DNA of 63,312 bases, filler included, from Stramenopiles sp. TOSAG23-3 (taxonomy: Eukaryota), in assembly GCA_900128585.1 (NCBI GenBank). It is 10 parts of 10 records of this genome, joined end to end, with 100 filler letters (N's around TTAATTAATTAA, not from the genome) between each part and the next. Parts side by side here need not be neighbours in the genome. Positions count along the whole stretch, not along the records: positions 10,896 to 21,686 come from LT642787.1; 9 more parts are not named here. One strand, written 5' to 3'. The notes under the pieces are model-generated. The model ran no database searches. It saw only the letters and a program-made list of their open reading frames with translations, and was not told the DNA's origin. The position numbers were made by a program, and so were the translations under genes. Positions within the stretch are counted from its first letter, which is position 1; every line of letters starts with the position of its first letter. This document shows, piece after piece, positions 5,301-43,672 of this stretch.

Positions 5301-7162
5301 CGGGCCCCGATCTCTTCTCCTATGTCTGAAATAACGCTACTCTCGTTTATGTTAAGCTTTCCCCCGCGTGCCACAACACTGTCCGAAAAATACCGCCCCG
5401 GGTTTAGCAATGTTCCCCGCAGTTTCTTTGCGCCATCGACCAGTTTTGCCACTATGGTGTTCTTTTCAAATATATCTTCAAACTGGCCATCGGCGATAAC
5501 CATTTCCTGCATCATGCTGTTAAAGTCAACCTCTGGGCTTGACATACCTGACTGAAAAATGGACAAAAAGACGTTTCCGCAATTGAAGAAATAATTTTTT
5601 ATTCTATAAAAGCTTTGTCCGGAATCTGCGTCTTGGGCCGAGCTCCGTGCCTGGCCTCCAGGCAATACTAGCTGAATGTACGGGGCAAAGAGCCTGTGCT
5701 TCAAAGCATTCCCAGCAAAAGATTGAAACAAAAAATCTGCTGCCGCAGAAGTTGAAAACAAAGACGACGCGTGCAGTGTATGCGCAACCAAGGCAATGCC
5801 ATCAGGCAGTTTCGACAATGTGTGAGAATTTACAAATAGCTGGTAAAACTTAATCACGTCTTGCAACAGTGTTCCGTCCGAAATAGATTCTGAGGGCACC
5901 CCCCCGCGTTTCATCCGCGTGTAAATGTGTTCTAATGGGTTTGCCCAAATACGCCGAAGGCAGGACACGTGTTCTGGGCGGAGTGCGTAGTCGGCTAACA
6001 CGTGCTTTACCCTGGCTGATATGTCCGGTACAGTTGACTTTTCCATGGATTCCGAAGGCCGTTGGTACATGGAGGAAGTGATTATAACGCATTTGACAAA
6101 TTCTGCACAGAGAACGTTGCACTTTCGTGTCCCGTTTTGATACAAGCGGTTAATGACGAAATTGCTAAACAACTTGACGTTTTGCCCTGGTATCTGCAAC
6201 AGTACGGACGCAAGAAAATGTGGAGTGTTCCTTGCCGCATACAGCAATTCGCTCTCGTGCAACGCAGCCGGGTTATTCAACGTTGCCGACAACTGGTGTT
6301 CTATGTGTTTTAAAATTTCTGTGGGGTTTAATGTTTGCTCGTTCACGTCGTAACGGTATGACCCAACGCTTGATCGAAGCTGGCTGTCCAGTTTCCAAGC
6401 CAAGTGAAGATAGTACTGCGTTTCTTTTCGCGTCCTCCACAAACGGTCCGCCGCCGCCTGTATGTCACCGGAAGTGCAGATTGGTAGCCATTTTTTATAC
6501 CGACCCTCAATTGGCCCGGTCCGTGTCCTATAACAATCGTTATACTTTACTTCCGAGTTGAAATCTTCCTGCGAAAACATGCTATTGTTTTTCAAGTACG
6601 GAACGGCTACACTTTTCGCCGGCTGGCCCCTTAAAGAGTCCATAAACGCTTGGCTTATCATTCTTATTTCAGTAGAATTTGCAGTTCTCGGTCCTGCATC
6701 GCGTTTTTCATCAGCGACGCGAGACTGGTTTGAAGGCGTGCTCGAGGGTGCATACACAGACGGCGGCTGGTCGTCGAGCAACGCGTCCTCTAATCGCTCT
6801 GGTTTAGGGTTTTGGGCTTCATCTGAGTTTAGTTGGGCAATAATTCTGTCAACCTCGTCCATGCGGATCGGTTGTACTGGAGCTTTATTGTTTGCCTGAT
6901 GAACGGCTGCGCTGACAGATTGATACGATGAGAATTGGGACGCAGAGTCCGGCAAATGTTGACGCTGCCCTCTATTGACGCGCCTCTGAAAAGCGCTCAT
7001 CTTATTGGCAACACGGTACTTTTCTTGCAACCGTGTCATTGTGTTTGCACGCAGATATTCCAAGTGGTGTAACTGTTCTCGGTGACCGCCTTCTCCTCCG
7101 TTGAGAATATGTTTGCCCTGTGAAAACGCATTTGCAGAAGTAGAACATTTAGGAACTTTCAT
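2306..7162 (-). CDS. Large protein with C-terminal PH domain(s) and possible degenerate RasGAP-like helical region
   Basis: 1618 aa ORF; C-terminal KGELYKKGRGGGIFKRKNWLKRSMVL...IELKSENEKEIVRWRRKIRQV is PH-like; a second PH-like end FFQADCVDTLDRWVDSLRDL; the central LPDGIALVAHTL...ADFLFQSFAGNAL only weakly resembles RasGAP. Confidence 0.55.
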   Translation of the reverse strand: MKVPKCSTSANAFSQGKHILNGGEGGHREQLHHLEYLRANTMTRLQEKYRVANKMSAFQRRVNRGQRQHLPDSASQFSSYQSVSAAVHQANNKAPVQPIRMDEVDRIIAQLNSDEAQNPKPERLEDALLDDQPPSVYAPSSTPSNQSRVADEKRDAGPRTANSTEIRMISQAFMDSLRGQPAKSVAVPYLKNNSMFSQEDFNSEVKYNDCYRTRTGPIEGRYKKWLPICTSGDIQAAADRLWRTRKETQYYLHLAWKLDSQLRSSVGSYRYDVNEQTLNPTEILKHIEHQLSATLNNPAALHESELLYAARNTPHFLASVLLQIPGQNVKLFSNFVINRLYQNGTRKCNVLCAEFVKCVIITSSMYQRPSESMEKSTVPDISARVKHVLADYALRPEHVSCLRRIWANPLEHIYTRMKRGGVPSESISDGTLLQDVIKFYQLFVNSHTLSKLPDGIALVAHTLHASSLFSTSAAADFLFQSFAGNALKHRLFAPYIQLVLPGGQARSSAQDADSGQSFYRIKNYFFNCGNVFLSIFQSGMSSPEVDFNSMMQEMVIADGQFEDIFEKNTIVAKLVDGAKKLRGTLLNPGRYFSDSVVARGGKLNINESSVISDIGEEIGARHVDIITCSNFEVQHFVECMQLVKPPTRAFPSPFAFPVRGLDLSKLTSPLSPDHGGGVNPSHTFMFALKPLLLQGNHARRLDTIHANLKSLFLALSDHDIGADEEISDIMTMLKVEKSFMETVQSDYKAMNRSIVEAENCLFLAKDQHEALRRRLLQANKLKTAKAPRARVQDDKQVNNLHNEKMLRASLRPNLKTHTEVFSPSVPKYRIQLKMTSPVYAKRYSLWMGNEMKWNSVEPNKTPPPEWHVSRANSPAPALSDSKAGKGARRGTSRSPPEELSHTITTKSLPREARRARRISILHSEENHTNTTLRPKGWHSSKAAARMKKMYDEKEAKLKEECTFQPDLNATRRSQHTQMGLKDELFPTKTWDKHESRGARVLNKERHRKMPIEKPKPSSKKSEGFGFGTSSPRFSEGRKSVRSPAVVSSWENHGPRKSKKDDAPVFDENASSEEEGFSDCEEDEESKTDRHIDEMSLIVFPVPLLTRAQFLKAFDVVAQNAGTNRCISGVQLIYHVASNPVVAALFTTPVVTGGIPVVPIVVKLKSGENEQIFAHFSSDIETLVLEFCTKHELSLSSYQNILTMKILSHLSGEFPDKKSTFFILVQIVMKMMQQDATKMFSFDEFISHLEPSCIFYGEEKEIQKDAPKVMLAERLSRMHHGDKFLMFHVQNEEARMAPFELRLSTNNSRVTKSRTEGKFHAPVYLFSVSDIERLVPLLPKRLAQALSNDTDHVGVVKPWLCFTLTVSDYLSGKRKTFFFQADCVDTLDRWVDSLRDLTDTFRAEHATSNKQPRIAPKGKFLWARVRQRVQCDAKMRRKTFSDVVVNAMLADSKNIQKLRQRKTMEFIESLKGEIPFEPDEHTHARVLAKGELYKKGRGGGIFKRKNWLKRSMVLSLYLPTDVPVHLAEVLPYAELNYSSNGQIRGSVRIDHTSVLLRNTSHPATRFTIQRSIAGQKLKNFDTHRYDIELKSENEKEIVRWRRKIRQVMKICRLYSEDEG

Positions 7163-10795: not shown

Positions 10796-10895
10796 NNNNN
10801 NNNNNNNNNNNNNNNNNNNNNNNNNNNNNNNNNNNNNNNTTAATTAATTAANNNNNNNNNNNNNNNNNNNNNNNNNNNNNNNNNNNNNNNNNNNN
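10796..10895. other. Artificial contig spacer (N44-TTAATTAATTAA-N44); identical spacers at 21687-21786, 32572-32671, 43448-43547, 54296-54395, 56102-56201, 57906-58005, 59709-59808 and 61512-61611
   Basis: Identical 100-nt structure nine times; the 12-mer gives stops in all six frames; contig lengths descend. Confidence 0.98.
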
Positions 10896-12174
10896 TTATA
10901 CTTTTTACCTGGAATAGAAAGAGGAGTAAATAATTTTGCCCACATTTATAAATAAGGTTATGTATTGAATTAATTATATTATTACAATATTAAATAGTAT
11001 ATATATAATACATATAATATATACAAAACATTATATAGAATACACGTAATTAGAAGTGCCTTGATGACGCAATTTTTTATTTTTTTAAGACTGAAGAAAC
11101 AAACAAAGCAAAAGCGCTTCCTTCTCCTTCCTCCTCCTTCTCCTTCATCTTTTTTAGAAAAAAAAAAGAAGATCGATCATCAAAACAACTTTTATAGAAA
11201 TCGAGAAGAAGAAAATAAAAGAAGAAGAATTGAAGAAACTATAATTATTAATGAATCGATCATCTTGATAGATAGGGTTTTTAGCTAAATAGGACTACGA
11301 TGTGTATTACTTATTAATCAGCATAATAATGAAAAGTACGAGGCGAATGATGAAACAAAGTAAAACCGTCGAATTTCATAATAAAAATATGGTAGAAAGA
11401 GAAACGAATAAAAATAGAATTTTTCTCACATCCGTTTCACGCCCAAAATATTTAGGTAACAATTCCATTTAATAATCACAGGTCACAGCATAATAAAATA
11501 GATCACACGCATTCCCCAACGTTTCACATATGATTGGAATTTAAAAAAAAAAGACAGTGTACATAATAGTATTTCTATATAATTAATAAACGATTAGATA
11601 CTAGATAGTCGTTCTAGTATTCGTAGATATATACGAAGTGTGATAAGAGTATCTCTATTATTATCCGCCTATGTCAAAATAAAAATCTTTTGATACGAGG
11701 CATCGCCGCTTCCGTAAATTAAGGATAAATATAGATAAATACATATTCCATTTTTGTTTAACCGTATGAATGATATAAAGGTTTAAAGTGTGATAAAGTA
11801 TGGAGATGATGTACAGAACCCTTTCCCCTTAATTATCGATCGAAGAGACATAATTTTTTTCTTTAAATATAATCGTTTATCTCTTCACAAAACTAACATT
11901 GGGATAGCATAGATATATATGAGAGTATATAACTCCTCTTTTTATTATTATATTTAACATGAAGAGAGAAGGGGAAGAATATACGTACCGCCGACTTTTG
12001 TGGTTGGAGAAGAAAGGATTTTATTCCTACGATGAAAAAGGAAATTGGCAACCAGTGCGGAACTACAGAAATCTACTTTCTTGAGCAAATACAAAACAGA
12101 TAGTTTTCACTAAGAAAGTTATCGCTTTATTACTTCATTGGAACGGAAGCAGACAGAACACAAACGCATTCAAA

Positions 12175-15018
12175 ATGGGATGTGGTGCATCAGCTGCGGC
12201 ACCGCCACTCACCCCGGGCGGTGGCACTGCAGAGTACAATACGGGTGGCGGTGCTCAAGCGGTTGCCTCGAGCGGCCCTGCCAGCCAGGGTGTAGAAATG
12301 GACGACGAAGTTGCGCAGCAGACTGCGGAACTTCTTTTTGATCTGTTGCCTTACTACGACACGGGTAACACGGAAGCAGACCAGATCTTTTTGGCCACCC
12401 TTCAAGCGCAAAGCATGTTGGTGCATGCGCGAGATCCTCACGGAAACACTCTCCTCATGGTCGCGTGCCAGAGCGTGAAGTCGGACTTGATCGAATTGAT
12501 GATTGAAAAAGAGGTTGATGTGAACGCCCAGAACTACATGGGCGTGTCCGCACTCCACATCGTTTGTTACGAAGTCAACGACAAGTCTTATACCCTGTGC
12601 GAGCAGCTCATTACGGCAGGTGCGAACACGGATGCCCGGGACGCCGAAGGGTGCACCCCCGTTCACTACGCAGCAAGTGGAGGGCACGCGTCTCTCGTCG
12701 CTTTGCTTTTGATGTACGGAGCCAATGCGGTTGCCGTTGACAACATGGGATACACGGCGCAGGACTATGCCGTGCAGTCCAATCACTCAGAGGTGGTACA
12801 GCTTCTTTACCACGCCGCTGGGGCCGAGGAGAACCCAAAAGAAGAAGAAGAGACATTGATCGAAGTTGCAGCAGACTTGTGGACGGAATATTTGGACCCA
12901 GCGAGTGGATGCCCGTACTACTACAATTCGTTGACGGGGGAAACTACTTGGGACAGACCAGAATCCTTCGAGTCCACCATCGCAGACCTTGCTGCAGATG
13001 CCCTGCGCATTACACAGCAAGAGAACGTCGAAAAGGCCCAAGCGGAATACGACAATCGAGGCGAGGGAGAAATGAAGGTCGCTTTTCTACTGGAGCGCTG
13101 GCGAAGGATTGCATGGAGGGCCGGTATGAAAGGTGTCATGGACAAGCAACGCAAGGCTACGCGAAAGTTCGCGATGGAGCAAGCCAAGGCACGAATGTAC
13201 CTCCTCGAGAATGGGACTTCGGACCAGCAGGCCAGTGTTCAAAAAGAATTGAAAATGAACAAAGCCGAAATCGAAAAGCTGAAAGAAAAGCTGAAGGAAA
13301 AAGATGCCCAAAAAGCCGTTGTTGTAAACGATTCAGAAATCCAGCGGTTGCGAGCTGAGCTCGAGAAGAAGAACAGGAATGGCAACCTGAACATGGACGC
13401 AATCAAAAACAAAATGCGGAAAGAGTTTGAGGACGAGTTTCAGCAGCAGAAGCGGCAGGCCATGAAAGAAATCGAAAGCCGGCAAGCAGAGAAGGCGAGC
13501 GCAATGGCCCAAGCACTCGCTGCGAAAGACAAGGAGGTAGGCTCCATGAAAGAAAAATTGGAAATGGCGGAAAAGTTGAGCAAGCAGAAACTTCAGAGCG
13601 CCGACGAGGCGGCAAAGAGGCAGGGTGCGTTGAAGAAACAAAACGACGAATCGGCACGAAAGGTCGCGGAAATGCAGAAGAAACTAGATGCTAAAGACGC
13701 CCAGCTACAGAAAAAGACGAAAGAGGTCGACAAGATTCGTGCTCAATCCGCCACGAAAGAAAGTCAAGTTGCCGCAGAAGCAAAGAAGTTGGCGCAAGAG
13801 AAGGCCCAGCTTGAGAAAGAAAAGGCGCAAATGTCGCTGGAGCTGCAAAACTTGAAGGATGAAAACGCTAAGCTCCGACGCGATTACTTGCACGAACAGA
13901 ACCTTCGCCGCAAGTACCACAACGAAGTCGAAGACTTGAAGGGTGCAATCCGTGTCTACTCAAGAACCAGGCCCCTGTCGAATTCGGAGAAAGAGAAAAA
14001 TTGCAAGGAAGTTACCTCGTTCCCAGATGAGTTCGTTATCAACATTACAGACGAAAACGAGCGAAAGAAAACATTTGAGTTTGACAAGAGTTTTGGACCC
14101 AACAGTACGCAAGAGGAGGTCTTCGGAGACACGAAGCGCTTGATTCAGTCTGCTATAGACGGTTACAACGTGTGCATTTTCGCATATGGCCAGACTGGGT
14201 CCGGGAAGACTTACACCATGATGGGGGCCAGCAACGATGAGAACCCAGGGCTTACGCCCCGGGCCGTGAAAGAGATTTTCCGAATTGGTCGCAGAGACAA
14301 AGACAAGATTAAGATAAACTGTTCGTTTTACATGGTCGAGCTTTATAAGGACGCCCTTGTGGACCTGCTTTCGGACAAGGACGTTGGCGACCAGCCAAAA
14401 TTGAACATAAAGAAAGATTCACGGGGAGTCGTATACATTGAGGGCGTCGAAAAGCGCACCAACATTGAAGACAAAAACGAATTGAACGCGGCAATCGCGG
14501 ATGGAATGTCCAGGCGCAAGACTGCATCCACCAAAATGAACTCCGAAAGTTCCCGGTCTCACCTGATCATGAGCATATTGATTGAAGTAACCAATTTGAA
14601 CACCAACGTGAACACCGTGGGGAAATTGACACTTGTGGATTTGGCGGGATCCGAACGTGTTGGAAAAACGGGCGCCACGAACGATCGATTAAAGGAGGCC
14701 CAGAGTATCAACAAAAGTCTGAGCGCATTGGGAGATGTCATTTCCTCTTTGACAAGCAACCAAAAGCATATCCCGTACAGGAACCACAAGCTTACGATGC
14801 TTTTGAGCGATTCGTTGGGTGGTAATGCGAAAACACTAATGTTTGTAAACGCTTCGCCGGCGGACTACAACACTGCAGAAACTGTGAACTCTCTTCAGTT
14901 TGCGTCCAGGGTAAAGAAAGTCGTTAACCAGTCCACGAAAACCATCGAGACGAAGGAGATCAAAGAATTGAAGAAACAACTGATGGTTTTAAAGGCCGCT
15001 ATGAAGATGAAAAAATAA
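12175..15018 (+). CDS. Kinesin-14 (C-terminal motor, KCBP-like) with acylation motif, ankyrin repeats, WW domain and coiled coil
   Basis: MGCGAS; ankyrin motifs GNTLLMVAC, GVSALHIVC, GCTPVHYAA; WW WTEYLDPASGCPYYYNSLTGETTWDRP; neck RRKYHNEVEDLKGAIRVYSRTRP; P-loop GQTGSGKT, SSRSH, DLAGSER, HIPYR. Confidence 0.93.
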   Translation: MGCGASAAAPPLTPGGGTAEYNTGGGAQAVASSGPASQGVEMDDEVAQQTAELLFDLLPYYDTGNTEADQIFLATLQAQSMLVHARDPHGNTLLMVACQSVKSDLIELMIEKEVDVNAQNYMGVSALHIVCYEVNDKSYTLCEQLITAGANTDARDAEGCTPVHYAASGGHASLVALLLMYGANAVAVDNMGYTAQDYAVQSNHSEVVQLLYHAAGAEENPKEEEETLIEVAADLWTEYLDPASGCPYYYNSLTGETTWDRPESFESTIADLAADALRITQQENVEKAQAEYDNRGEGEMKVAFLLERWRRIAWRAGMKGVMDKQRKATRKFAMEQAKARMYLLENGTSDQQASVQKELKMNKAEIEKLKEKLKEKDAQKAVVVNDSEIQRLRAELEKKNRNGNLNMDAIKNKMRKEFEDEFQQQKRQAMKEIESRQAEKASAMAQALAAKDKEVGSMKEKLEMAEKLSKQKLQSADEAAKRQGALKKQNDESARKVAEMQKKLDAKDAQLQKKTKEVDKIRAQSATKESQVAAEAKKLAQEKAQLEKEKAQMSLELQNLKDENAKLRRDYLHEQNLRRKYHNEVEDLKGAIRVYSRTRPLSNSEKEKNCKEVTSFPDEFVINITDENERKKTFEFDKSFGPNSTQEEVFGDTKRLIQSAIDGYNVCIFAYGQTGSGKTYTMMGASNDENPGLTPRAVKEIFRIGRRDKDKIKINCSFYMVELYKDALVDLLSDKDVGDQPKLNIKKDSRGVVYIEGVEKRTNIEDKNELNAAIADGMSRRKTASTKMNSESSRSHLIMSILIEVTNLNTNVNTVGKLTLVDLAGSERVGKTGATNDRLKEAQSINKSLSALGDVISSLTSNQKHIPYRNHKLTMLLSDSLGGNAKTLMFVNASPADYNTAETVNSLQFASRVKKVVNQSTKTIETKEIKELKKQLMVLKAAMKMKK

Positions 15019-15571
15019 GTAAACACCATGAAGTTATTTTTAGGCTTTTATTATAAAATAATATCGAATAAAAATTTTTTACATAAGAATTCTTACGTTA
15101 TGTTAACTTTAAAAATAGCCATTATTTTTTTACTCGTCTATTATTGAATTTCATCGCAAAAACTTAAAATGTTGTACTTGTAATAATTTCCTATATAAAT
15201 GCGTAGAGTGAAAATAAAAGAGAACTTTTTTTGGTTTTAAAATAATAAGTTTTTTCGCCATTTTCCTTCTTATTCAATGTTATTTTGTGTAACAGTAACT
15301 CCCTGCTAGTTTTTTAATTAAAAAAAAGTTCACACAAAACCGTACAAGATAATTGTTGGTACTACCTTGTACTACTTTACTACGAGGTAGTAGAAATTCC
15401 TCTCTCCTCTCTCGTAGTGGATTCCAACATTCCAACAATTGTTACTGATGTATTGTATTCCATCTAGTCGACTAAAACAGACGATAGAATGACAACAGAG
15501 GAAAATTATTGTTTGCAGCACTAACGTTTAATTATAAAAAAGTTTCCTTCAAGACTCGTATATAAAGAAGT

Positions 15572-16489
15572 ATGGCATCTATTTTAACGAGGGTTTCAGC
15601 CCGTGGCATACACCAAACCCCACTTACCCGGAAGGTATGGACAAACGCGCGGATTCAAGAATGTTTAAACAGGCATACAAGGGTTGCAGACGCCGTCCTA
15701 GCGCAGGACAGTGATAGTAATGGTGGTGCACAGTCGACATTTTCCGTTCTCCCCATATTTGTTCCTTTTAAAGATCTTGCCAAGAACCAGGACTTTTCCT
15801 TCTTGCCTCGTGAACTTGATCCCGACGAACTCCACGCTTGGCTTTTGAAACATGGGTTCGAGGATAAGAAACAACCATTCCCGGATTTTCATTTTGTCGA
15901 ATCCGAGAGTCAGTTACCCGATGATGGCGGCCACAGCAGACTTGTTATGCGCAAACTGTTGAAAAAGTTGTTTGGACAGCTTGATACCGACGGGGATGGG
16001 CAGGTCACACTGACGGAACTGTCTACTTTTTTAAAGGCAAATAAAATCGATTCGACTGATTACAAAAATGTTATGGCTGCATTCCATACCGCTGATTATG
16101 ATGGATCTTACAAGCTGTCCTACGACCAGTTTAAACGGCTGGTACGAGAAACAAATTTGCTGCGGTCTTATGGAACGAAAGAAGGGACGTTTGCACAATT
16201 TTCTGTAAATCAAGGATTGGTTGAAATGATTGCTTCTGAAATCTTTAAGAAAGCGGATTTGGACAACGAGCAGGCGATATCAAAAGTCGAATTGGTGCAA
16301 GTATGGAAAGCCTATCATTTAGGCGACGAGAAGGAAGCATTGGAGGTGTTTGATGAATACGATCTTAATGCAGATGGCCGAATCAACAAAGATGAATTCA
16401 CGGAATTGCTTTTGCGAAAGGGTGTCATTGATATTGCTGAAAATGCAACAGAAATGGAAGAGGGAGGCAATTCTTGTAGCATTCTTTAA
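15572..16489 (+). CDS. EF-hand calcium-binding protein with C-terminal CaaX box
   Basis: EF loops DTDGDGQVTLTE, DYDGSYKLSYDQ, DLDNEQAISKVE, DLNADGRINKDE; ends CSIL. Confidence 0.85.
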   Translation: MASILTRVSARGIHQTPLTRKVWTNARIQECLNRHTRVADAVLAQDSDSNGGAQSTFSVLPIFVPFKDLAKNQDFSFLPRELDPDELHAWLLKHGFEDKKQPFPDFHFVESESQLPDDGGHSRLVMRKLLKKLFGQLDTDGDGQVTLTELSTFLKANKIDSTDYKNVMAAFHTADYDGSYKLSYDQFKRLVRETNLLRSYGTKEGTFAQFSVNQGLVEMIASEIFKKADLDNEQAISKVELVQVWKAYHLGDEKEALEVFDEYDLNADGRINKDEFTELLLRKGVIDIAENATEMEEGGNSCSIL

Positions 16490-17051
16490 AGGAGCACAAA
16501 AAAAAAGGTAAATTTTATAAATTTTAGTCGTCACTAATAATAATATTTTATTATTAGATTTTTTTTTTTCACACAACACCACAACAACAACAAAACCACC
16601 ACCAAAATGAGGAGGGAATAATAAATAAATAACAGCAGAAGAATATTATTTTTTGTTACTGCTGTGTTTATGTCAAGAAAAAGATATTTTTTCCCCCATT
16701 AACCCTAACACTAACCATTTCCTACGATATTTATCACCACACATCACCACCACGAGTGGTTGTCAAAAAAAAAAATAGGTCGACGACGAAGAGGAGGAGG
16801 AGAGACGAAGAAGAAGAAAGAAGAAGAATAAATATTATTAACATGTTATTATACAAACGAAGAACAAAAAAAAGAAAGAAAGCGCTGTAGGCCACAAACT
16901 ATTGTAAAATGGAACAAAAGGGAAATACTTATTTCTAAAGCTTCAGAGAACTACAGTGCTAAATATTGAACGCGTTTCGGTTGCCTCTTGAGAAATAGAC
17001 TCGTTGTTCCAGTTGCCGAGTCACAAACTCTGTATAGCGTGTACCTTCGGC

Positions 17052-20000
17052 ATGGCAGACCGTGCAGACTGGAAAAAGTGTGTCAGCCGCAGCACTGGTG
17101 CACCTTACTACTACAATGCAAGGACGAAAAAAAGTTTTTATTCCGAAAAGGGTTTACCAGACGGTTGGGTGTTTGATTGGAAAGATATAAAGGCGAAAAC
17201 AAAGCGCTACTTTAATATATTTACTTATGAAACTGCAGACACTGTCGACGCTATCCCTCGTGCGGGAGAGTCAGGAAACAAGCCCTCGGCGTCTACCAAG
17301 GCGGCCCCTGCGGAGGCCCCGCCCCCCCGCTCTCGCACCACCCACAGGCGCGCGAGCGGAAGATACCCCCTTTATTGCCGCCAAACGACAAGAGTTGATA
17401 ATAAATATACGGACAGAATTCGCAAAGTTTGTGGAGAATTCTGGTACAATGAACGGAAAGACAAAGACGGCGAAAGCCGTGCTACGCCAGGGGCACTTTA
17501 TCGGTTTGGCGGGTGTCTATGGCCGCTGGGTATTCAACCAAAAACGGAACGAGGGGGGTGGGCAGGGACCCCCTGCTTCCAATATTTTCGCCGGACTTGA
17601 AACATTTGCCCCAAGAGATGGTAGATGCAGGCTTAGACAGGCAGGTAGGGAAAGATGCATCCCTGCTGTTGTCAAAGCACGCAAAGGCAGCGGTTCAAGA
17701 ATTAACGGACCTTGCGAGCGATGAAGAGCAAAGCAAGGATCGTTATTGGGGCAACAACCTGCTTAAAAATTGCGTCGCGGACGAAGGCACCCACGTGGCA
17801 TTGAACGTCGCAAACACATCGTTGAGGATAACAAAGCGCCACTACCAGAAGCTCGAACAGATGTACCGAAGAGACGCACAGAACAGCGCGTCAAAATCCA
17901 TCCGTCGTATATTTTGCGTTCTGCAACGTTACGAATCTTTGAGTGGCGATTCTGCAGGGTTTCAAATGGCGCTGACGGAAGATGTTTTTGACAAGCTTCA
18001 CAATTTGTTTGGAGTCACCCATGAATGCTTTGCCTCCCCATTGAATTGCTACTTCCCTAATTTCTGCAGTCTTTTTTATGACACGGATAGGTTCTTTGGT
18101 AGCAAAGGAAGTTTTTTCGACTTTCATCCCACAGAGGGCTCCTTTGAAGCTAACCCACCGTTCGTCGACGAAACAATGACCGAAAATGTGAAGCATATTA
18201 TATCTTTGTTGGAGAAGTCCCAGAAACCGTTGTCGTTCGTGATCATTGTTCCTGGCTGGGACGACGACGATTGCCAATCTTACCAGATTACAACAGGAAG
18301 TAAGTATTTGAGGGCATTTCTTACGTGGGACAAAATGTCGCACCAGTACAAATCTGGGGTTCAATACAAAATGGACGACAGCACACGGTACAAGGACTCG
18401 AGGGTAAACACGTTCGTATTTATCATGCAAAACGACGCGGGCGCCAAAAAATGGCCGGTGACCGAACAGAAAAAAAAAATGCTGACAGGCTCTTCAAAGA
18501 CGACATCACAAGCAAGGGAAAGGGAAGGTCATGTCACAATGTGGCAGCAGGCTTCTGGTGCAGGCGTTGCCCAACCGGCCGCCGCCCCGTCTTCCAAACC
18601 AGGGAAGCGCAAGCGGGACGAGAACCAGGCATCTGCTGAAGACCATTACAATAACAAAAAGCTGCGCGCAGCGCGTTCGGATGTAAGAAATCGGGAAAAC
18701 CACTCGCTGACCCACTGGTACAAGCTTTCAAACTGGGTAAAAAACACTGTGATCACGTCTCACTGTCCAGAGAGGGCTGCCGTATTGGATTTGGCATGTG
18801 GGGCAGGCGGCGATTTGTTCAAGTTCAAGCGTCGAAAAGTGTCCAAATACGTGGGCGTAGACATTGCGAAGGAAAGCCTGAAAGATGAGATTAATAAAGT
18901 GAACGACGACCCAAGCATAGCGTTTCCCATTCGACTGGCACATGCAGTGTTGGGAACAGACGATTTAGTAGGGGAAGACGCGAAGCTTGATGTTTGGTCA
19001 TCTGACACCCAGACTTGGACCCCGGACAGCCCTCTGCTACTGGATGGGGAGGGTTTTAATCTTGTTTCGATGCAATTTGCACTTCACTACATGATGGAAA
19101 GTGCTGATAGATTAAGACAGTTTTTCAAGTCGTGGAGTGACAGCCTGAGGCCAGGCGGTTTTTTTGTTGCAACGAGTACAGATGCCCATTCTATGGCGCA
19201 GATCATGTCCCAAAACCCCCCGAAGACAGATGGGACCACGGAAATAGAGCTGAAAGACGGTGCAGGTCGTGTGAACTGCAAGATTACGTTTCCAAAGGCA
19301 ACGCGGGAGGCTATGTTCAAAGGAAATTGTAAATCCACTTGCGACTTTGGAATGACCTGTAATTTTCAATTGACCGAACACCGCGACAATGGCGAAGCAA
19401 TTGACGCTGTAAACGCGACAGAATGGCTTTTGCCAGTGGAGGCCGTCGTTCAAATCGCTGCAGAATTTAACTTGGAGCTTCGAAGCAACACGAGGTTTGA
19501 TCAATACATGCATCAAATGAGTAGGCAGGTCCCTGAATTCAGCCAGTTGCTTGCCAAAATGAAAGTAGCAGGGTTGCGGCAGCACGAGTGGAGGCTCGCC
19601 AGCCTATACACTGTCCTGACGTTCCAGAAAAAGCCCACCAATCGGGTAGCAATAATAGTCCCATTCCGCGATTTGCATGCTGCGCAAAAACGGAGTGCTC
19701 ACCTTAAGCAGTTTATCCCGTTCATGGTCTCGTACCTGTCCACGGCTAGAATCAGTTTCAGAATATTTATTGTAGAGCAGTCCAATGATGGCAAGAAATT
19801 CAATCGTGGAAAGCTGCTTAACACCGGGTTTGACATTGCCAAAAAAGAGGGGTATACAAGTTTCATATACCACGATGTAGATTTGTTACCAAGTGAAAAC
19901 CTTTTGCCGTACTATGCCACTTATCCGCAGCAACCCATTCACATTGCGAGGGTTTGGGAACGCTACAATGCAAATCCTCATTATTGTGGCGGCATTGCAT

Positions 20001-20413
20001 CTTTTAACAAAGCTGACTTTGAGCGCATAAATGGATTCCCGAATAATTTTTGGGGATGGGGCGGGGAAGACGATGAAATGCAGCTGCGAATGCAAGCATG
20101 CCAGCTGATATTTGCTTGCCCGCAGGTTGGCGAGATCCAAGATCTGGAGTACATGACCTTGGCGGAAAAATTGGCGTTCTTGAAGCAGCAAAAGCTAGGG
20201 GCACGTGATAACTCTTGGAAGTGTATGGTGAAAGAAGAACTGCTGAAAGAGCATAAAGATACCTGGCAGAGCAATGGTTTGTCTGACTTGAAGTACAAGG
20301 TTCTGAAGTCTACTAAATCTTTGCATTCCAGTGGCCTCGCATCAAGGGTCACCGTCGAATTGCCTTTGAACGGTCACTGGTCTGACACCAAAACCGAGTG
20401 GGGCGATAAATGA
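17052..20413 (+). CDS. WW-WW / PCIF1 (CAPAM) m6Am methyltransferase / RNMT cap guanine-N7 methyltransferase / GT7 glycosyltransferase fusion; two +1 frame changes in the 5' part
   Basis: WW at ATG 17052 (WKKCVSRSTGAPYYYNART; LPDGW); PCIF1 motifs RQELIINIR, RWVFNQK..DPLLP, HECFASPLN, GSFEANPPF; RNMT motifs NWVK, VLDLACGAGGDLFK, GVDIA, SMQFALHY, LRPGGFF, EWRLASLYTVLTFQK; GT7 motifs VAIIVPFRD, FNRGKLLN, HDVDLLP, INGFPNNFWGWGGEDDE. ORFs 17004, 17227 and 17513 join near the C7 run (17322-17328) and G6 run (17553-17558), giving ~1119 aa. Confidence 0.88.
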
Positions 20414-21142
20414 AGAAGAAAAAAAATATTCGTACACGTACAATTGGAAGTTTTCTATTTTCTTTTTTTCAGTGTGATGTTTGTTGCTGTTTGGTTCGTT
20501 TGCCTTCTCTTCTATTTCTAAAAAAAATAATCTTATAGTACATGCTTTTTAATTTTTCTTAATCTTGTACTTTGTATTAAGATCTGAAATAAGCAGAGGC
20601 AAACGTTTAAAACAATTCAAAAATGTATGAGATTACATTGAATATTAATATCGTATTAGTATTGTATTATAATACCGAATATTTTATGATTATTTAATTT
20701 ATCATCTGATGATATCCCCCTTGTTTTTATCTGCAATAAAGAGTGAAAAGAGTATACACTATAAAAGTCCGTCCGTCCGCCAAAATCCGAACTGAACAAT
20801 TTTAGGTGCTGTGTACCTTTTAACGCTCTAATAATCCGAACTAAACTTGAAAGAAGAAGAGATCATTTTTGTCTAACTCTCTCATGATTTCATTACGGCG
20901 CTAAAAAATGCACTCTCCTTACTAGTATCTCCCCTTCGTATAATTTTTAATCATCTTTCGATCAACAATCTTATTTTTTAACAATTGTAAATAACCTGTT
21001 TTTTAGAGTTCGTACAAAGTATTTCGTACATCAAAACCAAAAAGGTTTAAAGCCATAAGAGTCAAATTGATTGGTTCAGTTTTTCAACGAAGATAAAAAA
21101 TATCTAACAACCCGGAAACGAAAGTAAACTTAACACCGCAAT

Positions 21143-21686
21143 ATGGAATCACAAGCAACACGCACGAACCCCAGTGAGAGTGAGAACCCGAAGAAGAACC
21201 CTCTTCGAGCGCACTTGGAAGTTAGTGCGGCAGAGGAGAATCCAGAACAGACCAAATCCAAATGTTCGTGGGTGCCATGCACCCGTGTTTGTGTACTGGA
21301 GAAGAAGTTGGGGTGCAAATATTTACGAGCGCTATGGGGGAGGGAGAGTCTAACCATCTTTCTGTTGATGAATCTGATAGGTTCCGGTCTAATTTACATA
21401 TTCCAGGCATTTACTGGAGGTTTGTACAGAGAAGGCCTTTGGGTTTTCTTTGCAATGGGAGTATTTGCGTATTTGCTTGCATGTCGAATATGGGTGAAAA
21501 GTTTGCTGGGCGCATACCCAAAAGCAACAGCCCAAAACGAACGGAAAACCTGGATGAAAGTATTTTATACCATCATTGCAACCGCGCACATTTGTTTTGC
21601 ACTCGTGAACACTTTTTTTGTACTTCTGCTAAGTCGTGAAGTTATTTGGCGGATAATTTTTATATTATCTTCATTAAGTATAGCAC
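21143..21686 (+). CDS. Multi-pass membrane protein, 3'-truncated at contig edge
   Basis: About four hydrophobic segments; ORF runs into the N spacer. Confidence 0.5.
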
Positions 21687-22169
21687 NNNNNNNNNNNNNN
21701 NNNNNNNNNNNNNNNNNNNNNNNNNNNNNNTTAATTAATTAANNNNNNNNNNNNNNNNNNNNNNNNNNNNNNNNNNNNNNNNNNNNGCCGCTTTTCGGTA
21801 CAAATTAGGGTCCTAGGAGGTACCTGGTACGGTACGGTACCTAGGTACCGAGGTACCGAGGCACCGTATTATTATACGTATAGGAGGAGTCCCGTACCCT
21901 TCTTGGTACCAAGGGTGGAGGAGAATAAGTTGCGAGTGGGTGGTGCGAGGAGTGACTGCCGGCGGTCGAGTTTGTATAGAAAGAGTTAGTCATATGTACA
22001 TTTGTGGGGTGAAAGCTTCAAGATCCCTTTTTGTATATTTAGTGTTCGTAAGAATCAAACTGCGTTTCGTAAAAAATTTACAGACCCTGTTAAATTTGTT
22101 GGACGAGATCTTGGAATTAGTGTATATTGATTGACCGCAGACAGCTTCAACGAAAGCAATAATACTGCA

Positions 22170-32571: not shown

Positions 32572-32671
32572 NNNNNNNNNNNNNNNNNNNNNNNNNNNNN
32601 NNNNNNNNNNNNNNNTTAATTAATTAANNNNNNNNNNNNNNNNNNNNNNNNNNNNNNNNNNNNNNNNNNNN

Positions 32672-32673
32672 TT

Positions 32674-32741
<68 letters not shown>

Positions 32742-32772
32742 TTTCTTCTTCTTTTTCTTCTTCTTTTTCTTC
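32672..32772. repeat. (TTTC)n microsatellite at contig start
   Basis: Direct reading. Confidence 0.9.
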
Positions 32773-41950: not shown

Positions 41951-42462
41951 TTAAAAAAACACTATCGAGGATGAGATTGAATATATAATTATATGTGTAT
42001 ATTTATATATAGAAAGAGAGATACGTTGATAAATGTAATTGTACCTTTTCCGTGTTAACATCCGGTTTGGATTTGTTTAGTTATCATTTGGTTGGGTTCA
42101 GTTGTTTCCATTTCCATGTCTTTTCATAGAATTCCTTTTTTCTTCCTTTTTTCCTTCTTTCTTTCTTTCTTTCTTTCTTCTTCTGATTTTTTGTATTTTG
42201 AATCCTATGCTATTCTTATATATTTAAATTCATTTTTGAAAATTCTTCTTCTTTTTAATAATAAAATAAAATTATGATATACTAATATTAATATAAGTAT
42301 ATTATACTACCTATTTAATATACATATTATTTAAAATAGATACTGTGACAATGTTTCCTTCCTAGTCCTAAATGACCATTCATTTTTTTTCTTCTTTTTT
42401 TAATTTAAAGTTAAAAAAAAAAGGATTTTTGAAAAGATATTTTTTTAATTTAGAATCTCCCG

Positions 42463-42597
42463 CTCTCTCTCTTCTCTCTTCTCTCTTCTCTCTTCTCTCT
42501 TCTCTCTTCTCTCTTCTCTCTTCTCTCTTTTCTCTTCTCTCTTCTCTCTTCTCTCTCTTCTCTCTTCTCTCTTCTCTCTCTTCTCTCTCCCTCTCCC
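42463..42597. repeat. (CTTCTCT)n polypyrimidine tandem repeat
   Basis: Direct reading; ~130 nt of pure pyrimidine. Confidence 0.9.
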
Positions 42598-42799
42598 CAG
42601 CCTCCTCCATCCAGCTGGTGGTATTAATTATTAGACTATTCAATTAAAAATGAAGAATGTATACTTTATACTTTATACTTTACCGTCTTCTAATTTGAGT
42701 TGAGTGTCCACTCTCTGTGCTGCTGCCTTTTCTTTTTTTATTTTTTTTTCCCTTTTTTTTTAATTATTATTTATAATGGTTGAGTTGTTATAAAAAGAC

Positions 42800-42918
42800 T
42801 CCTTTTTCTTTCTTCTTCTTTTATCTTCTTCCTCTTCTTTCTTCTTCCTCTTCTTTCTTCTTCTTCTTCTTTCTTCTTCTTCTTCTTTCTTCTTCTTCTT
42901 CTTTCTTCTTCTTCTTCT
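42800..42918. repeat. (CTT)n imperfect microsatellite
   Basis: Direct reading. Confidence 0.9.
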
Positions 42919-43179
42919 GCTGTATTATATAGCTTCTAGAAGTTAATAGATGAGTGTATTATTAGGATAGAGTTTAGAGTAGCTAAACTAAGAATTCAAT
43001 AAAATTACCAACCAACCGACCGAAAGAAAAAAAAACCAAATTGAATAAAGTAAAACATTAAAAATCCTATGAATTCATTATAGCCAATAATTATAATATG
43101 ATTTTTGAAAACTATTTATTCCTATTATATAATTTATTAGAATATATTATAACAAAACAAGTACATATCGGTTTGACTC

Positions 43180-43447: not shown

Positions 43448-43547
43448 NNNNNNNNNNNNNNNNNNNNNNNNNNNNNNNNNNNNNNNNNNNNTTAATTAAT
43501 TAANNNNNNNNNNNNNNNNNNNNNNNNNNNNNNNNNNNNNNNNNNNN

Positions 43548-43617
43548 TTCTTTCTTTCTTTTGAGTTCTTTCTTTCTTTCTTTTGAGTTCTTTCTTTCTT
43601 CCTTCCTTCCTTCCTTC

Positions 43618-43672
<55 letters not shown>

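What the first reader, a model, noticed from the sequence alone, without database searches (positions are those of the whole stretch)
17052..20413. Single-chain WW-PCIF1-RNMT-GT7 enzyme: candidate cap-maturation and cap-glycosylation factor
Seen: one continuous, stop-free frame (17513-20413) carries a PCIF1/CAPAM catalytic domain with intact NPPF (to ~18470), a linker with an NLS-like KPGKRKR, an RNMT/Abd1-type cap guanine-N7 methyltransferase (~18640-19632) and a complete GT7 catalytic domain (~19640-20410) joined by a seamless TFQKKPTNRVAIIVPFRD junction. WW domains sit at the N-terminus. Established: PCIF1 WW binds Ser5-phosphorylated Pol II CTD; PCIF1 makes m6Am on m7G-capped RNA; RNMT makes the m7G; GT7 enzymes are normally Golgi-lumenal type II membrane proteins. 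Inference: two sequential cap methyltransferases in one chain make functional sense, and a glycosyltransferase on a nuclear cap-processing protein suggests an undescribed sugar modification of the cap, cap-proximal RNA, or Pol II CTD/associated proteins. I do not know this architecture from any characterised protein.
Basis: partly seen in the sequence, partly recalled or inferred. Interest (0 to 1): 0.9.

Follow-up and report, generated by a model that had tools for sequence, protein, structure and literature searches.

The report
Cap methyltransferases fused to a glycosyltransferase
A marine protist gene joins two mRNA-cap methylating enzymes to a sugar-adding enzyme that normally works in the Golgi, and the same pairing recurs in related algae and giant viruses, hinting at an unknown sugar mark made where mRNA caps are made.

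Summary
Window 17453-20413 is one stop-free frame with PCIF1, cap guanine-N7 methyltransferase (RNMT) and complete GT7 domains. All checked catalytic motifs are intact. The WW module at 17052 belongs to the same gene. This assembly carries two one-base homopolymer insertions, at 17322 and 17553. Independent DNA and RNA contigs lack them, giving a 1119-aa protein. RNA contigs bridge both domain junctions and show no introns.

The fusion recurs in two relatives, one labelled MAST-4. The GT7 domain belongs to a large clade with no membrane anchor or signal peptide. Its basic form is a WW-GT7 protein of ochrophyte stramenopiles. The clade is joined to cap enzymes in at least six arrangements, including about 90 giant-virus capping enzymes, and also to helicases.

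My reading is a Pol II CTD-tethered 5'-end maturation enzyme whose active GT7 domain works at the capping site. The acceptor is untested. I put capped RNA at about 0.4 and a protein of the transcription/capping complex at about 0.33. Eight literature searches found no description.

The parts
17052..17258 (+). Start codon and the N-terminal tandem WW module. The first WW has an S-R-S-T-G loop. The second repeat, LPDGW...YFNIFT, is degenerate.
   Evidence: Pfam WW, E 2.4e-06. The ATG matches Met1 of P0001. The tandem arrangement aligns with P0002-P0008 and with the stand-alone WW-RNMT proteins P0293, P0295 and P0296. I read the second repeat by eye.
17322..17322 (+). Extra C in a C-run. This is frameshift 1 of this assembly, not of the gene.
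   Evidence: The base is left out in the independent DNA contig of run X3. P0001 reads through in one frame.
17553..17553 (+). Extra G in a G-run. This is frameshift 2 of this assembly.
   Evidence: The base is left out in the X3 DNA contig and in the RNA contigs of X15 and X18.
17822..18484 (+). PCIF1/CAPAM-type N6-adenosine methyltransferase domain. The catalytic NPPF lies at 18152-18163.
   Evidence: Pfam PF12237, E 1.9e-58. It aligns to PCIF1 structure 6irx, E 9.5e-52, with EANPPF conserved.
18485..18610 (+). Low-complexity linker ending in the NLS-like KPGKRKR, which lies at 18596-18616 and so runs 6 bases past this part's end into the first codons of the RNMT match.
   Evidence: Translation and coordinates. 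No Pfam domain matches here. The NLS function is inferred.
18611..19630 (+). RNMT/Abd1-type mRNA cap guanine-N7 methyltransferase domain. Motif I VLDLACGAGGDL is at 18782-18817 and MQFALHY at 19070-19090.
   Evidence: Pfam PF03291, E 2.5e-39. It aligns with Abd1 structures 9mg5 and 9mg0. The AF2 model matches Abd1/RNMT folds with TM-score by target about 0.8. It is 31-33% identical over its full length to stramenopile stand-alone WW-RNMT proteins.
19619..19672 (+). Seamless RNMT-to-GT7 junction, TFQKKPTNRVAIIVPFRD.
   Evidence: The Pfam matches abut at residues 726/727. RNA contigs X15 record 7 (19443-19785) and X17 record 12 (19599-20061) bridge it.
19631..20413 (+). GT7 (beta-1,4-galactosyltransferase-like) catalytic domain and stop codon. 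DVD is at 19874-19882 and WGWGGEDDE at 20051-20077. The lid segment around 20129-20155 has diverged.
   Evidence: Pfam PF13733 and PF02709. B4GALT1 alignment, E 2e-29. Across 236 clade domains, DVD is kept in 235, EDD in 233 and WGWGG in 235. The lid does not align to B4GALT1. The fold matches B4GALT1/7 with TM-score by target 0.67-0.80.

Best explanation
This is one real, intron-less, transcribed gene of an uncultured marine stramenopile. The nearest named relative is labelled MAST-4. It encodes a 1119-aa nucleocytoplasmic protein with the order tandem WW, PCIF1, RNMT, GT7.

**How it most likely works.** All of this paragraph is inferred from family knowledge.
1. The Pin1/PCIF1-like WW module docks the protein on the phosphorylated CTD of RNA polymerase II.
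2. The RNMT domain converts GpppN- to m7GpppN-.
3. The PCIF1 domain N6-methylates a cap-adjacent adenosine.
4. The GT7 domain is a catalytically competent inverting UDP-hexose transferase. The donor is probably UDP-Gal, because the Tyr that corresponds to bovine B4GALT1 Y289 is kept. That residue role is recalled.

**Shown here.** The GT7 domain belongs to a membrane-anchor-free clade that is repeatedly wired to the capping machinery.

**Committed inference.** The GT7 domain acts at the same site as its fusion partners and puts a hexose on the capped 5' end of nascent mRNA, on a ribose hydroxyl of the cap or of the first nucleotides.
For: **The gene is real**
- The ORF and its domains are there.
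- Independent DNA and RNA contigs restore one frame, bridge both junctions and show no joints.
- P0001 and P0121, 1119 aa, occur on several contigs.

**Catalytic competence**
- NPPF is present.
- RNMT motif I and QFALHY are present.
- GT7 DVD and WGWGGEDDE are present.
- These GT7 motifs are kept in 233-235 of 236 clade domains.

**Not secretory**
- The highest Kyte-Doolittle 19-residue mean in P0001 is 1.22.
- 0 of 120 short clade representatives have an N-terminal TM-like segment.
- Of the 15 long proteins scanned, only P0439, a canonical-looking tandem GT7, has one.

**Recurrent coupling of this GT7 clade to 5'-end enzymes**
- WW-PCIF1-RNMT-GT7(-MTase) in P0001-P0003.
- WW-RNMT-GT7 in P0004-P0008 and P0173.
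- RNMT-linker-GT7 in P0009, GT7-RNMT in P0042 and RNMT-GT7 in P0414.
- GT7-(TPase?)-GTase-N7MT in about 90 of the 120 best hits (label count).
- GTase-N7MT-GT7 in P0105, P0415, P0424 and P0352.
- GT7-PCIF1-GT7 in P0428.
- GT7 with DEAD or SNF2 helicases in P0113, P0098, P0120 and P0322.
- Sources for this list.

**The fusions are independent**
- The domain orders differ.
- The GT7 tree splits a viral side from a cellular side (support 97).
- The MAST fusions form one clade (support 98). P0009 and P0042 nest elsewhere.
- The window's RNMT is 31-33% identical over its full length to cellular WW-RNMT. It is 22-26% identical, over part of its length, to viral MT domains.

**Analogy**
- In stramenopiles WW-RNMT (Albugo, P0296), WW-GT7 and the WW-PCIF1-RNMT-GT7 fusions carry similar N-terminal WW modules. 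PCIF1 itself is usually WW-fused (PMC4738411, passages read).
- RNMT and PCIF1 modify RNA.
- Giant-virus capping enzymes have no CTD context (recalled), so what the two settings share is the mRNA 5' end.

**Tight module**
- The linker is 0-3 residues long.
- The AF2 model of RNMT-GT7 has pLDDT 88.9 and pTM 0.73.
Against: - No experiment or tool here touches the acceptor.
- Every characterised GT7 enzyme transfers to a pyranose sugar acceptor (GlcNAc, Glc, Xyl, GlcA; recalled). None transfers to a nucleotide ribose.
- Several clade members are fused to other glycosyltransferases. GT90 appears in P0020, P0390, P0392 and P0419, and P0367 is a multi-GT protein. This looks like stepwise glycan building on a protein.
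- The basic WW-GT7 form fits equally well an enzyme that modifies the CTD or a CTD-bound protein.
- The region that in B4GALT1 holds the second metal ligands and the acceptor lid does not align. So even metal use is not settled.
- 12 of the 16 fetched giant-virus capping-enzyme loci have no GT7 in the gene or within the fetched flanks. The domain is therefore an accessory, not a core capping step.
- RNA contigs come from metatranscriptomes, which can contain DNA (tool caveat).
- pTM 0.73 is only moderate, and I could not inspect the model's coordinates.
Confidence: 0.4

Rival explanations
1. The gene model and the CTD tethering are the same, but the GT7 domain glycosylates a protein, not RNA. 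It would extend a primer sugar (O-GlcNAc, O-Glc or O-Xyl) on the Pol II CTD, on the capping or early-elongation complex, or on the enzyme itself. This would be a nucleocytoplasmic protein glycan made at the site of capping.
For: - All characterised GT7 acceptors are sugars, and B4GALT1 readily galactosylates protein O-GlcNAc (both recalled).
- The commonest form of the clade is WW-GT7. By my count about 90 of the 120 proteins listed carry Pfam WW. A WW domain is a protein-docking module.
- GT7 is fused to GT90 in P0020, P0390, P0392 and P0419, and to several glycosyltransferases in P0367. GT90 is the protein O-glucosyl/xylosyltransferase family (role recalled). This suggests stepwise glycan synthesis.
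- Neither these GT90 fusions nor P0367 has a TM-like segment (best 19-residue Kyte-Doolittle mean 1.07-1.76, against 2.27 for the one canonical type II GT7, P0439).
- Precedents are cytoplasmic Skp1 glycosylation in protists and O-GlcNAc on the animal CTD (recalled).
Against: - Giant-virus capping enzymes carry the domain, although viral RNA polymerases lack a heptad CTD (recalled).
- The partners are overwhelmingly RNA 5'-end enzymes: RNMT, PCIF1 and GTase. RNMT is joined in several independent arrangements.
- No primer-sugar transferase was found in the window protein.
Confidence: 0.33
2. The GT7 domain does not modify any component of the capping site. It is either a UDP-sugar-binding sensor or regulator of the methyltransferases, or an enzyme with an unrelated soluble acceptor that is merely co-expressed by fusion.
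For: - The lid and second-metal region has diverged from B4GALT1.
- The domain is accessory in viruses: 4 of the 16 fetched capping-enzyme loci carry it.
- OGT-style nutrient sensing is a known logic (recalled).
Against: - DVD, WGWGG and the EDD catalytic-base motif are kept in 233-235 of 236 domains across very distant lineages. This argues for catalysis.
- Identity across stramenopile classes is high, 50-57%.
- Repeated independent fusion to the same class of partners is not expected for an unrelated function.
Confidence: 0.15
3. The fusion is an artefact: a chimeric assembly, a read-through of neighbouring genes, or a pseudogene, as the two frameshifts in the window might suggest.
For: - The window copy has two frameshifts between WW and PCIF1.
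- The window is a string of separate contigs joined by N44-TTAATTAATTAA-N44 linkers.
Against: - Both frameshifts are single extra bases in homopolymer runs, and independent DNA and RNA contigs lack them.
- The gene lies wholly inside one contig piece, 10896-21686.
- One independent DNA contig spans 17633-20638.
- Identical or near-identical 1119-aa proteins occur on several contigs from several sources.
- Two diverged relatives, 66% and 56% identical, keep the same order.
- The Pfam domains abut with no room for a stop and a restart.
Confidence: 0.02

Closest known systems
PCIF1/CAPAM, the cap-specific adenosine-N6 methyltransferase of animals (structures 6irv, 6irx)
   Same: N-terminal WW, the PF12237 catalytic domain and the NPPF motif. 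The alignment has E 9.5e-52. PMC4738411 (passages read) describes the family as usually WW-fused and CTD-recruited.
   Different: Known PCIF1 proteins are stand-alone. Here the domain is followed in the same chain by RNMT and GT7. Activity was not tested.
RNMT/Abd1/Ecm1 cap guanine-N7 methyltransferases, and the stand-alone WW-RNMT of oomycetes (Albugo laibachii, P0296)
   Same: PF03291, motif I and the QFxxHY segment, with a fold TM-score by target of about 0.8. The tandem WW N-terminus is like that of stramenopile WW-RNMT.
   Different: Identity to the nearest stand-alone forms is only 31-33%. The C-terminus runs straight into a glycosyltransferase. I could not test whether this is the organism's only RNMT, because no genome is held.
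Beta-1,4-galactosyltransferases B4GALT1 and B4GALT7 (CAZy GT7)
   Same: Both Pfam halves, the PFRxR..HL, FNRxxLLN, DVD, Y-x-GG and WGWGGEDD motifs, and the fold.
   Different: There is no signal anchor. The lid and second-metal segment is 50 residues long, against 37 in B4GALT1, and does not align. It is replaced by a clade-specific conserved block, DLE..M.L.EKL...WKC.VK.E.L.EH. The domain is fused to nuclear RNA enzymes.
Trifunctional mRNA capping enzymes of giant viruses and poxvirus-like viruses (TPase-GTase-N7MTase; e.g. faustovirus and ASFV pNP868R, seen in the listing and)
   Same: Several cap-forming activities sit in one chain. A subset of giant-virus MAG enzymes carries the same GT7 clade at the N- or C-terminus.
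   Different: The window protein has no triphosphatase or guanylyltransferase. Its RNMT is of the cellular type. The GT7 addition is not mentioned in the reviews and papers whose passages I read or term-searched.
Known RNA glycosylation: glucose caps on U-initiated E. coli mRNAs (PMC12541447, abstract read); glycosylated queuosine in tRNA and glycoRNA (recalled)
   Same: A sugar at an mRNA 5' end, or on RNA, with effects on RNA fate.
   Different: Bacterial sugar caps, as I recall, arise when RNA polymerase initiates with a UDP-sugar, not through a dedicated transferase. The abstract I read does not give the mechanism. The queuosine enzymes belong to other GT families (recalled). No GT7 enzyme and no eukaryotic m7G-cap glycosylation is described in what I searched.

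Membership tests
PCIF1/CAPAM (PF12237) | PCIF1_WW catalytic domain above Pfam gathering score | tested here: met
   197.4 bits against a cut-off of 31.1.
PCIF1/CAPAM (PF12237) | Catalytic NPPF motif | tested here: met
   EANPPF aligns with 6irx. It lies at 18152-18163.
PCIF1/CAPAM (PF12237) | N-terminal WW domain in the same protein | tested here: met
   Pfam WW, E 2.4e-06. It is in frame in P0001 and in independent contigs.
PCIF1/CAPAM (PF12237) | m6Am formation on m7G-capped RNA | not testable with these tools
   This needs an enzyme assay.
RNMT/Abd1 cap guanine-N7 methyltransferase (PF03291) | Family domain above gathering score and matching fold | tested here: met
   135.7 bits against a cut-off of 26.6. 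Foldseek matches Abd1/RNMT with TM-score by target 0.78-0.85.
RNMT/Abd1 cap guanine-N7 methyltransferase (PF03291) | SAM motif I (VLDLxCGxGGDL) and the QFxxHY cap-guanine segment | tested here: met
   Both align with 9mg5 and 9mg0. The roles of these residues are recalled.
RNMT/Abd1 cap guanine-N7 methyltransferase (PF03291) | It is the cell's cap-0 methyltransferase, with no other RNMT in the genome | not testable with these tools
   No genome is held for the window. No other copy lies in the 63-kb window.
GT7 beta-1,4-galactosyltransferase-like (PF13733 + PF02709) | Both Pfam halves above gathering score | tested here: met
   70.8 bits against 27, and 71.3 bits against 23.
GT7 beta-1,4-galactosyltransferase-like (PF13733 + PF02709) | DxD metal/UDP motif and the WGWGGEDD catalytic-base motif | tested here: met
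   Both are present in the alignment. They are kept in 233-235 of 236 clade domains.
GT7 beta-1,4-galactosyltransferase-like (PF13733 + PF02709) | Second metal ligands (Met/His) and the long flexible acceptor lid of B4GALT1 | tested here: inconclusive
   The segment between EDDE and KEHKDTW does not align to B4GALT1. A conserved DLE occupies that region. The residue numbering of B4GALT1 is recalled.
GT7 beta-1,4-galactosyltransferase-like (PF13733 + PF02709) | Type II membrane anchor and lumenal location (typical of the family, not strictly defining) | tested here: not met
   No hydrophobic segment: the best 19-residue Kyte-Doolittle mean is 1.22. 0 of 120 short relatives have an N-terminal TM-like segment.
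Giant-virus-type multifunctional capping enzyme | Guanylyltransferase (PF01331) and triphosphatase in the chain | tested here: not met
   The window protein has no PF01331 or PF03919 match. These domains occur only in the viral relatives.

The most novel reading that the evidence does not exclude
Stramenopiles and a subset of giant viruses make a glycosylated mRNA cap. A dedicated, CTD-recruited (or, in viruses, capping-enzyme-fused) GT7 transferase would add a hexose to the m7G cap or to the first transcribed nucleotides. In some lineages this would be followed by methylation by the extra class-I methyltransferase that sits directly after GT7 in P0002, P0003 and P0352. That would be a new chemical layer of the eukaryotic cap, with its own writer.
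Probability: 0.35. Interest if true: 0.95.

Novelty: new variant of a known kind. Interest (0 to 1): 0.8.

Why it matters
The eukaryotic mRNA cap is thought to be decorated only by methyl groups. Here a catalytically intact sugar transferase has left the secretory pathway. It has been welded to cap-forming enzymes again and again, in a major eukaryotic group that includes diatoms, kelps and oomycete pathogens, and in giant viruses.

Two outcomes seem most likely, and both would be new biology:
- A sugar-modified cap.
- A previously unseen glycosylation of the transcription/capping machinery.

The question is directly testable:
- Genetically tractable diatoms and oomycetes probably carry the simple WW-GT7 form. 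The named carriers seen here are other diatoms, brown algae and relatives.
- Cap mass spectrometry and UDP-sugar transfer assays are routine.

The viral copies suggest that the mark matters in host-virus competition for translation or RNA stability.

Tried and rejected
- **The genome search 'own'.** No genome is held for the window. I could not test for a stand-alone RNMT, PCIF1 or WW-GT7 in the same organism.
- **The search of earlier findings.** The first call had a badly formed word. No earlier findings were seen.
- **Protein atlas look-alikes of the RNMT-GT7 half.** Only generic bacterial class-I methyltransferase clusters came back, all scoring below 0.9. This was uninformative.
- **C-terminal extra methyltransferase.** I looked for the domain of P0002 and P0003 downstream of 20413 by tblastn and found nothing. 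P0001 also ends at ...EWGDK.
- **Nearest structures to that extra methyltransferase.** They are generic small-molecule and sugar O-methyltransferases (MitM; D-glucose O-methyltransferase 6uv6; WbdD), with E from 1e-8 to 1e-3. This is too weak to name a substrate.
- **GT7 gene next to giant-virus capping genes that lack the fusion.** None was found within the fetched flanks of 12 of 16 loci.
- **Introns as the cause of the frame changes.** Rejected, because no joints appear in any laid contig and both sites are homopolymer indels.
- **Model coordinates.** They are not available to scripts. I could not measure how the RNMT and GT7 active sites face each other.
- **Literature.** Eight searches found no paper describing a GT7 fusion to capping enzymes or PCIF1, or a WW-GT7 family. 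One search was badly designed and returned only unrelated stramenopile papers. Supplements are closed and were not seen. The supplements of PMC4738411, on PCIF1 domain architectures, could bear on priority.
- **Parts of the gene without RNA contig cover.** These are not evidence of anything.


Full report

Yes. One search lists a stop-free frame at 17453..20413 (+), 986 codons. Pfam places four matches on it, all far above the curated cut-offs:
- PCIF1_WW at residues 133-302 (E 1.9e-58).
- mRNA_G-N7_MeTrfase at 387-726 (E 2.5e-39).
- Glyco_transf_7N at 727-818.
- Glyco_transf_7C at 830-892.

The PDB sequence search agrees. It returns PCIF1 (6irx, E 9.9e-51), B4GALT1 and B4GALT7 (E about 1e-28 to 1e-20), and Abd1/RNMT/Ecm1 (E 5e-16 to 2e-10).

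- NPPF at 18152-18163.
- KPGKRKR at 18596-18616.
- The junction TFQKKPTNRVAIIVPFRD at 19619-19672. The RNMT and GT7N Pfam matches abut at residues 726/727.

A WW domain (E 2.4e-06) lies in the frame that starts with the ATG at 17052.

**2. Gene structure**

In the window the 5' part changes frame twice.
- The database protein P0001 (1119 aa, 100% identical over the query part) reads MADRADWKK...EWGDK in a single frame.
- Laying public contigs on 16900-20700 shows that an independent marine DNA run (X3) lacks one base at 17322, in a C-run, and one at 17553, in a G-run.
- RNA contigs of X15 and X18 also lack the base at 17553.
- So the window assembly carries two homopolymer insertions. The gene itself is one uninterrupted ORF from 17052 to 20413.
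- No joints (introns) were seen in any of the four runs.

RNA-library contigs bridge both junctions:
- PCIF1 to RNMT: X17 record 11, 18426-19459.
- RNMT to GT7: X15 record 7, 19443-19785, and X17 record 12, 19599-20061.
- The tool's caveat stands: metatranscriptomes can contain DNA, and contigs do not show transcript ends.

The assembly is not chimeric:
- A 3308-nt DNA contig of X3 covers 17633-20638.
- The 1119-aa protein P0121 is on record from 8 contigs.

The window is a chain of separate contigs joined by N44-TTAATTAATTAA-N44 linkers. The gene lies entirely within the piece 10896-21686, together with a kinesin and an EF-hand gene. Only those are true neighbours.

**3. Catalytic competence and location**

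- PCIF1: EANPPF aligns with the 6irx structure.
- RNMT: motif I VLDLACGAGGDL, VGVDIA and QFALHY align with Abd1 structures.
- GT7: PFRD..R..HL, FNRGKLLN, DVD, HYCGG and WGWGGEDDE align with B4GALT1.
- In 236 GT7 domains of this clade, DVD is kept in 235, EDD in 233 and WGWGG in 235.
- The Tyr in Y-x-GG is at least 97% conserved. In bovine B4GALT1 that position (Y289, recalled) excludes N-acetylated donors, so UDP-Gal or UDP-Glc is the likelier donor. This is an inference.
- The 50 residues between EDDE and KEHKDTW cannot be aligned to the 37-residue B4GALT1 segment that carries the second metal ligands and the acceptor lid (numbering recalled). The clade has its own conserved block there, DLE.M.L.EKL...WKC.VK.E.L.EH. 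The acceptor site is therefore remodelled.
- No hydrophobic segment exists in P0001 (best 19-residue Kyte-Doolittle mean 1.22).
- 0 of 120 short relatives have an N-terminal TM-like segment. Among the 15 long proteins scanned, only P0439 does. It is a canonical-looking tandem GT7.
- An AF2 model of the RNMT-GT7 half (600 aa, 52-row alignment) has mean pLDDT 88.9 and pTM 0.73.
- Foldseek matches one half of the model to Abd1/RNMT (TM-score by target about 0.8) and the other half to B4GALT1/7 (0.67-0.80). No solved chain covers both halves; TM-score by query is at most 0.41.

**4. Relatives with the same architecture**

Of the 263 hits, 120 were listed.
- P0002 (1471 aa, 66% identity) has the order WW-PCIF1-RNMT-GT7 plus a further C-terminal class-I methyltransferase. 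A cluster member, P0131, is named Stramenopile-MAST_4 by EukProt.
- P0003 (1560 aa, 56% identity) has the same order and the same extra domain.
- That extra domain is absent from the window protein and from the DNA downstream of it.
- P0004-P0008 and P0173 are WW-RNMT-GT7. P0011 has the same order but sits on a long branch.
- In the GT7 tree the three PCIF1 fusions, six RNMT fusions and one fragment form one clade. Support is 98 in the 72-row IQ-TREE quick tree and 99 in the 236-row FastTree.

**5. The wider GT7 clade**

Searching the GT7 domain alone against shorter proteins gave 1160 hits.
- The 120 listed are 50-58% identical (one partial hit, P0185, 72% over 71% of the query).
- By my count of the table, about 90 of them carry a Pfam WW domain.
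- Every one that a source names is a stramenopile: Nitzschia, Epithemia, Grammatophora, Cylindrotheca, Entomoneis, Stephanopyxis, Proboscia, Ectocarpus, Scytosiphon, Tribonema, Phaeomonas, Triparma and Mallomonas.
- Many of them are MMETSP transcripts, so the gene is expressed.
- Against 1.84 billion cluster representatives, the domain finds 361 proteins at E<=1e-30 and 3173 at E<=1e-10.

The nearest stand-alone RNMTs are WW-RNMT proteins, among them Albugo laibachii 'mRNA cap guanine-N(7) methyltransferase' (P0296; 32% identity, 99% coverage).
- They share the tandem WW-like N-terminus of the fusions.
- The WW loops (S-K-S-Q-K, S-R-S-T-G) resemble the phosphoserine-binding loop of Pin1-type WW domains. 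The Pin1 comparison is recalled.

So stramenopiles hold three WW-tethered enzymes, PCIF1, RNMT and GT7. The window's lineage has them in one chain.

**6. Recurrent fusion to cap enzymes**

Arrangements seen:
- (a) WW-PCIF1-RNMT-GT7(-MTase).
- (b) WW-RNMT-GT7.
- (c) RNMT-linker-GT7 (P0009) and GT7-RNMT (P0042). Both nest inside the diatom-like WW-GT7 clade. P0414 is also RNMT-GT7.
- (d) GT7 at the N-terminus of GTase-N7MT capping enzymes. This covers 90 of the 236 domains analysed, all from the 120 listed.
- (e) GTase-(cap_C)-N7MT-GT7 in P0105, P0415 and P0424, and GTase-cap_C-N7MT-GT7-class-I MTase in P0352.
- (f) GT7-PCIF1(NPPF kept)-GT7 in P0428.
- (g) GT7 with helicases. P0113 of Peronospora has a DEAD-box helicase. 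P0098, P0120 and P0322 have SNF2-like helicases.
- (h) GT7 with other glycosyltransferases. P0020, P0390, P0392 and P0419 have GT90, and P0367 is a multi-GT protein. P0358 is GT7-WW-DUF3431.

The type (d) and (e) proteins are viral.
- A scan of IMG/VR with P0023 returned 16 loci, several of them named as giant-virus MAGs.
- 4 of the 16 (L001, L002, L005, L010) carry the GT7 part. The other 12 have none in the gene or within the fetched flanks.
- One locus, L010, was annotated. The 1600-aa ORF has GT7N/C, PF01331 and PF03291, and lies next to an SNF2-like helicase.

The GT7 tree splits a viral side (25 rows) from a cellular stramenopile side (47 rows), with support 97.

The window's RNMT domain is 31-33% identical over its full length to cellular WW-RNMT. 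It is only 22-26% identical, over part of its length, to viral MT domains. So the cellular and viral fusions arose separately.

**7. What it most likely does**

Shown:
- It is a single expressed gene.
- Its three catalytic centres are intact.
- It has no secretory signals.
- It belongs to a GT7 clade that evolution has repeatedly joined to enzymes of the mRNA 5' end.

Inferred from family knowledge:
- The WW module docks on the phosphorylated CTD.
- RNMT makes m7G.
- PCIF1 makes cap-adjacent m6A(m).

Inferred by guilt-by-association: the GT7 domain acts at the same site.

I commit to capped RNA as the acceptor, at about 0.4. My reasons:
- The partners are RNA 5'-end enzymes.
- The association also holds in viruses that have no CTD context (recalled).
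- WW-GT7 parallels WW-RNMT and WW-PCIF1, which are RNA modifiers.
- The RNMT-GT7 junction has no linker.

The strongest rival, at about 0.33, is extension of a primer sugar on the CTD or on another protein of the complex. Its support:
- All known GT7 acceptors are sugars (recalled).
- The clade includes GT90-GT7 fusions.
- The WW module is by nature a protein-docking device.

A sensor or unrelated role (about 0.15) is disfavoured by the near-invariant catalytic motifs. An artefact (about 0.02) is disfavoured.

**8. Comparison with what is known, and novelty**

Each domain is a clear member of its family; see the membership table. The GT7 domain fails the typical type II anchor, and its lid is of uncertain equivalence.

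I found no paper describing GT7 fused to capping enzymes or PCIF1, or a WW-GT7 family, in eight full-text searches. What I read:
- PMC4738411 (passages): it describes PCIF1 as WW-fused and CTD-recruited, with no such fusion in the passages read.
- PMC9614988 and PMC10583209 (passages): giant-virus glycan and virolog reviews that do not link capping enzyme and GT7.
- PMC13351356 (term search only): it gave zero occurrences of glycosyl or galactosyl.
- PMC7824862 (passages): no mention.
- PMC3113572 (passages): it reports cap1 methyltransferase orthologues in the diatoms Thalassiosira and Phaeodactylum.
- PMC12541447 (abstract): it describes glucose caps on U-initiated E. coli mRNAs. That is the closest known 5'-terminal mRNA glycosylation.

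About 1.7 million PMC articles are not in the searched library.

I rate the finding a new variant of known kinds, that is, a new multi-enzyme architecture and a new nucleocytoplasmic GT7 clade. There is a substantial chance (0.35) that it marks a categorically new cap modification.

**9. Limits**

- No genome of the organism was available.
- Model coordinates could not be inspected.
- The trees are unrooted, with midpoint rooting for drawing only, and were built by quick methods.
- I dropped P0011 and five long-branch short sequences from the 72-row tree, and sampled every sixth viral and short sequence.
- Architecture counts rest on phmmer with the window's own domains. They cover only the 240 listed representatives, not all 263 + 1160 hits.

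Noticed in passing
window 10796-10895, 21687-21786, 32572-32671, 43448-43547, 54296-54395, 56102-56201, 57906-58005, 59709-59808, 61512-61611: The window is not one molecule. Nine linkers of the form N44-TTAATTAATTAA-N44, a six-frame stop spacer, join separate contigs. Gene neighbourhood is therefore meaningful only within a piece. The finding's piece is 10896-21686.
   Followed up: yes
window 12085-15018 (+): The upstream neighbour is a C-terminal-motor kinesin with ankyrin repeats and its own WW domain (Pfam Kinesin 1.1e-108, Ank_2, WW 1.2e-11). Next to it, at 15566-16489, lies a four-EF-hand protein.
   Followed up: partly
P0002 residues ~1180-1471; P0003 ~1227-1560; P0352 ~1533-1720: Relatives carry a further class-I SAM methyltransferase directly after GT7, in both a cellular and a capping-enzyme context. 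The order N7MT-GT7-MTase recurs. The nearest solved structures are small-molecule and sugar O-methyltransferases, with weak matches. It might methylate the sugar that GT7 adds, but that is speculation.
   Followed up: partly
L001, L002, L005, L010 (IMG/VR giant-virus contigs), GT7 at about 6000-6850 of each locus: A subset of giant-virus mRNA capping enzymes has an N-terminal GT7 domain 45-54% identical to the window's. 12 other fetched capping-enzyme loci lack it.
   Followed up: partly
P0428 (1342 aa): A GT7-PCIF1-GT7 protein with NPPF kept at residue 939. It links GT7 to PCIF1 without RNMT. Its origin, viral or cellular, was not determined.
   Followed up: no
P0020 (Seminavis robusta, 1192 aa), P0390, P0392, P0419: These are GT90-GT7 fusions without a membrane anchor. 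P0020 starts with an RGG-rich, RNA-binding-like N-terminus. They bear on the protein-glycan rival.
   Followed up: partly
window 32672-32760 and 43400-43600; 42001-44000: Contig ends made of TTTC/TTC microsatellite. The region is AT-rich and strongly skewed, with GC 0.26 and GC skew -0.45. These are probably assembly break points at simple repeats.
   Followed up: no
window 18920, 19318, 19447, 19491, 19825 and others: Single-base differences between the window and contigs of other marine runs. A few residue differences to P0001 correspond to them, for example A to V and T to M. This looks like population variation in one widespread marine species. By the tool's own tally 20 of the 24 listed runs, from 15 studies, hold at least part of the stretch, but only four were laid here.
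   Followed up: no
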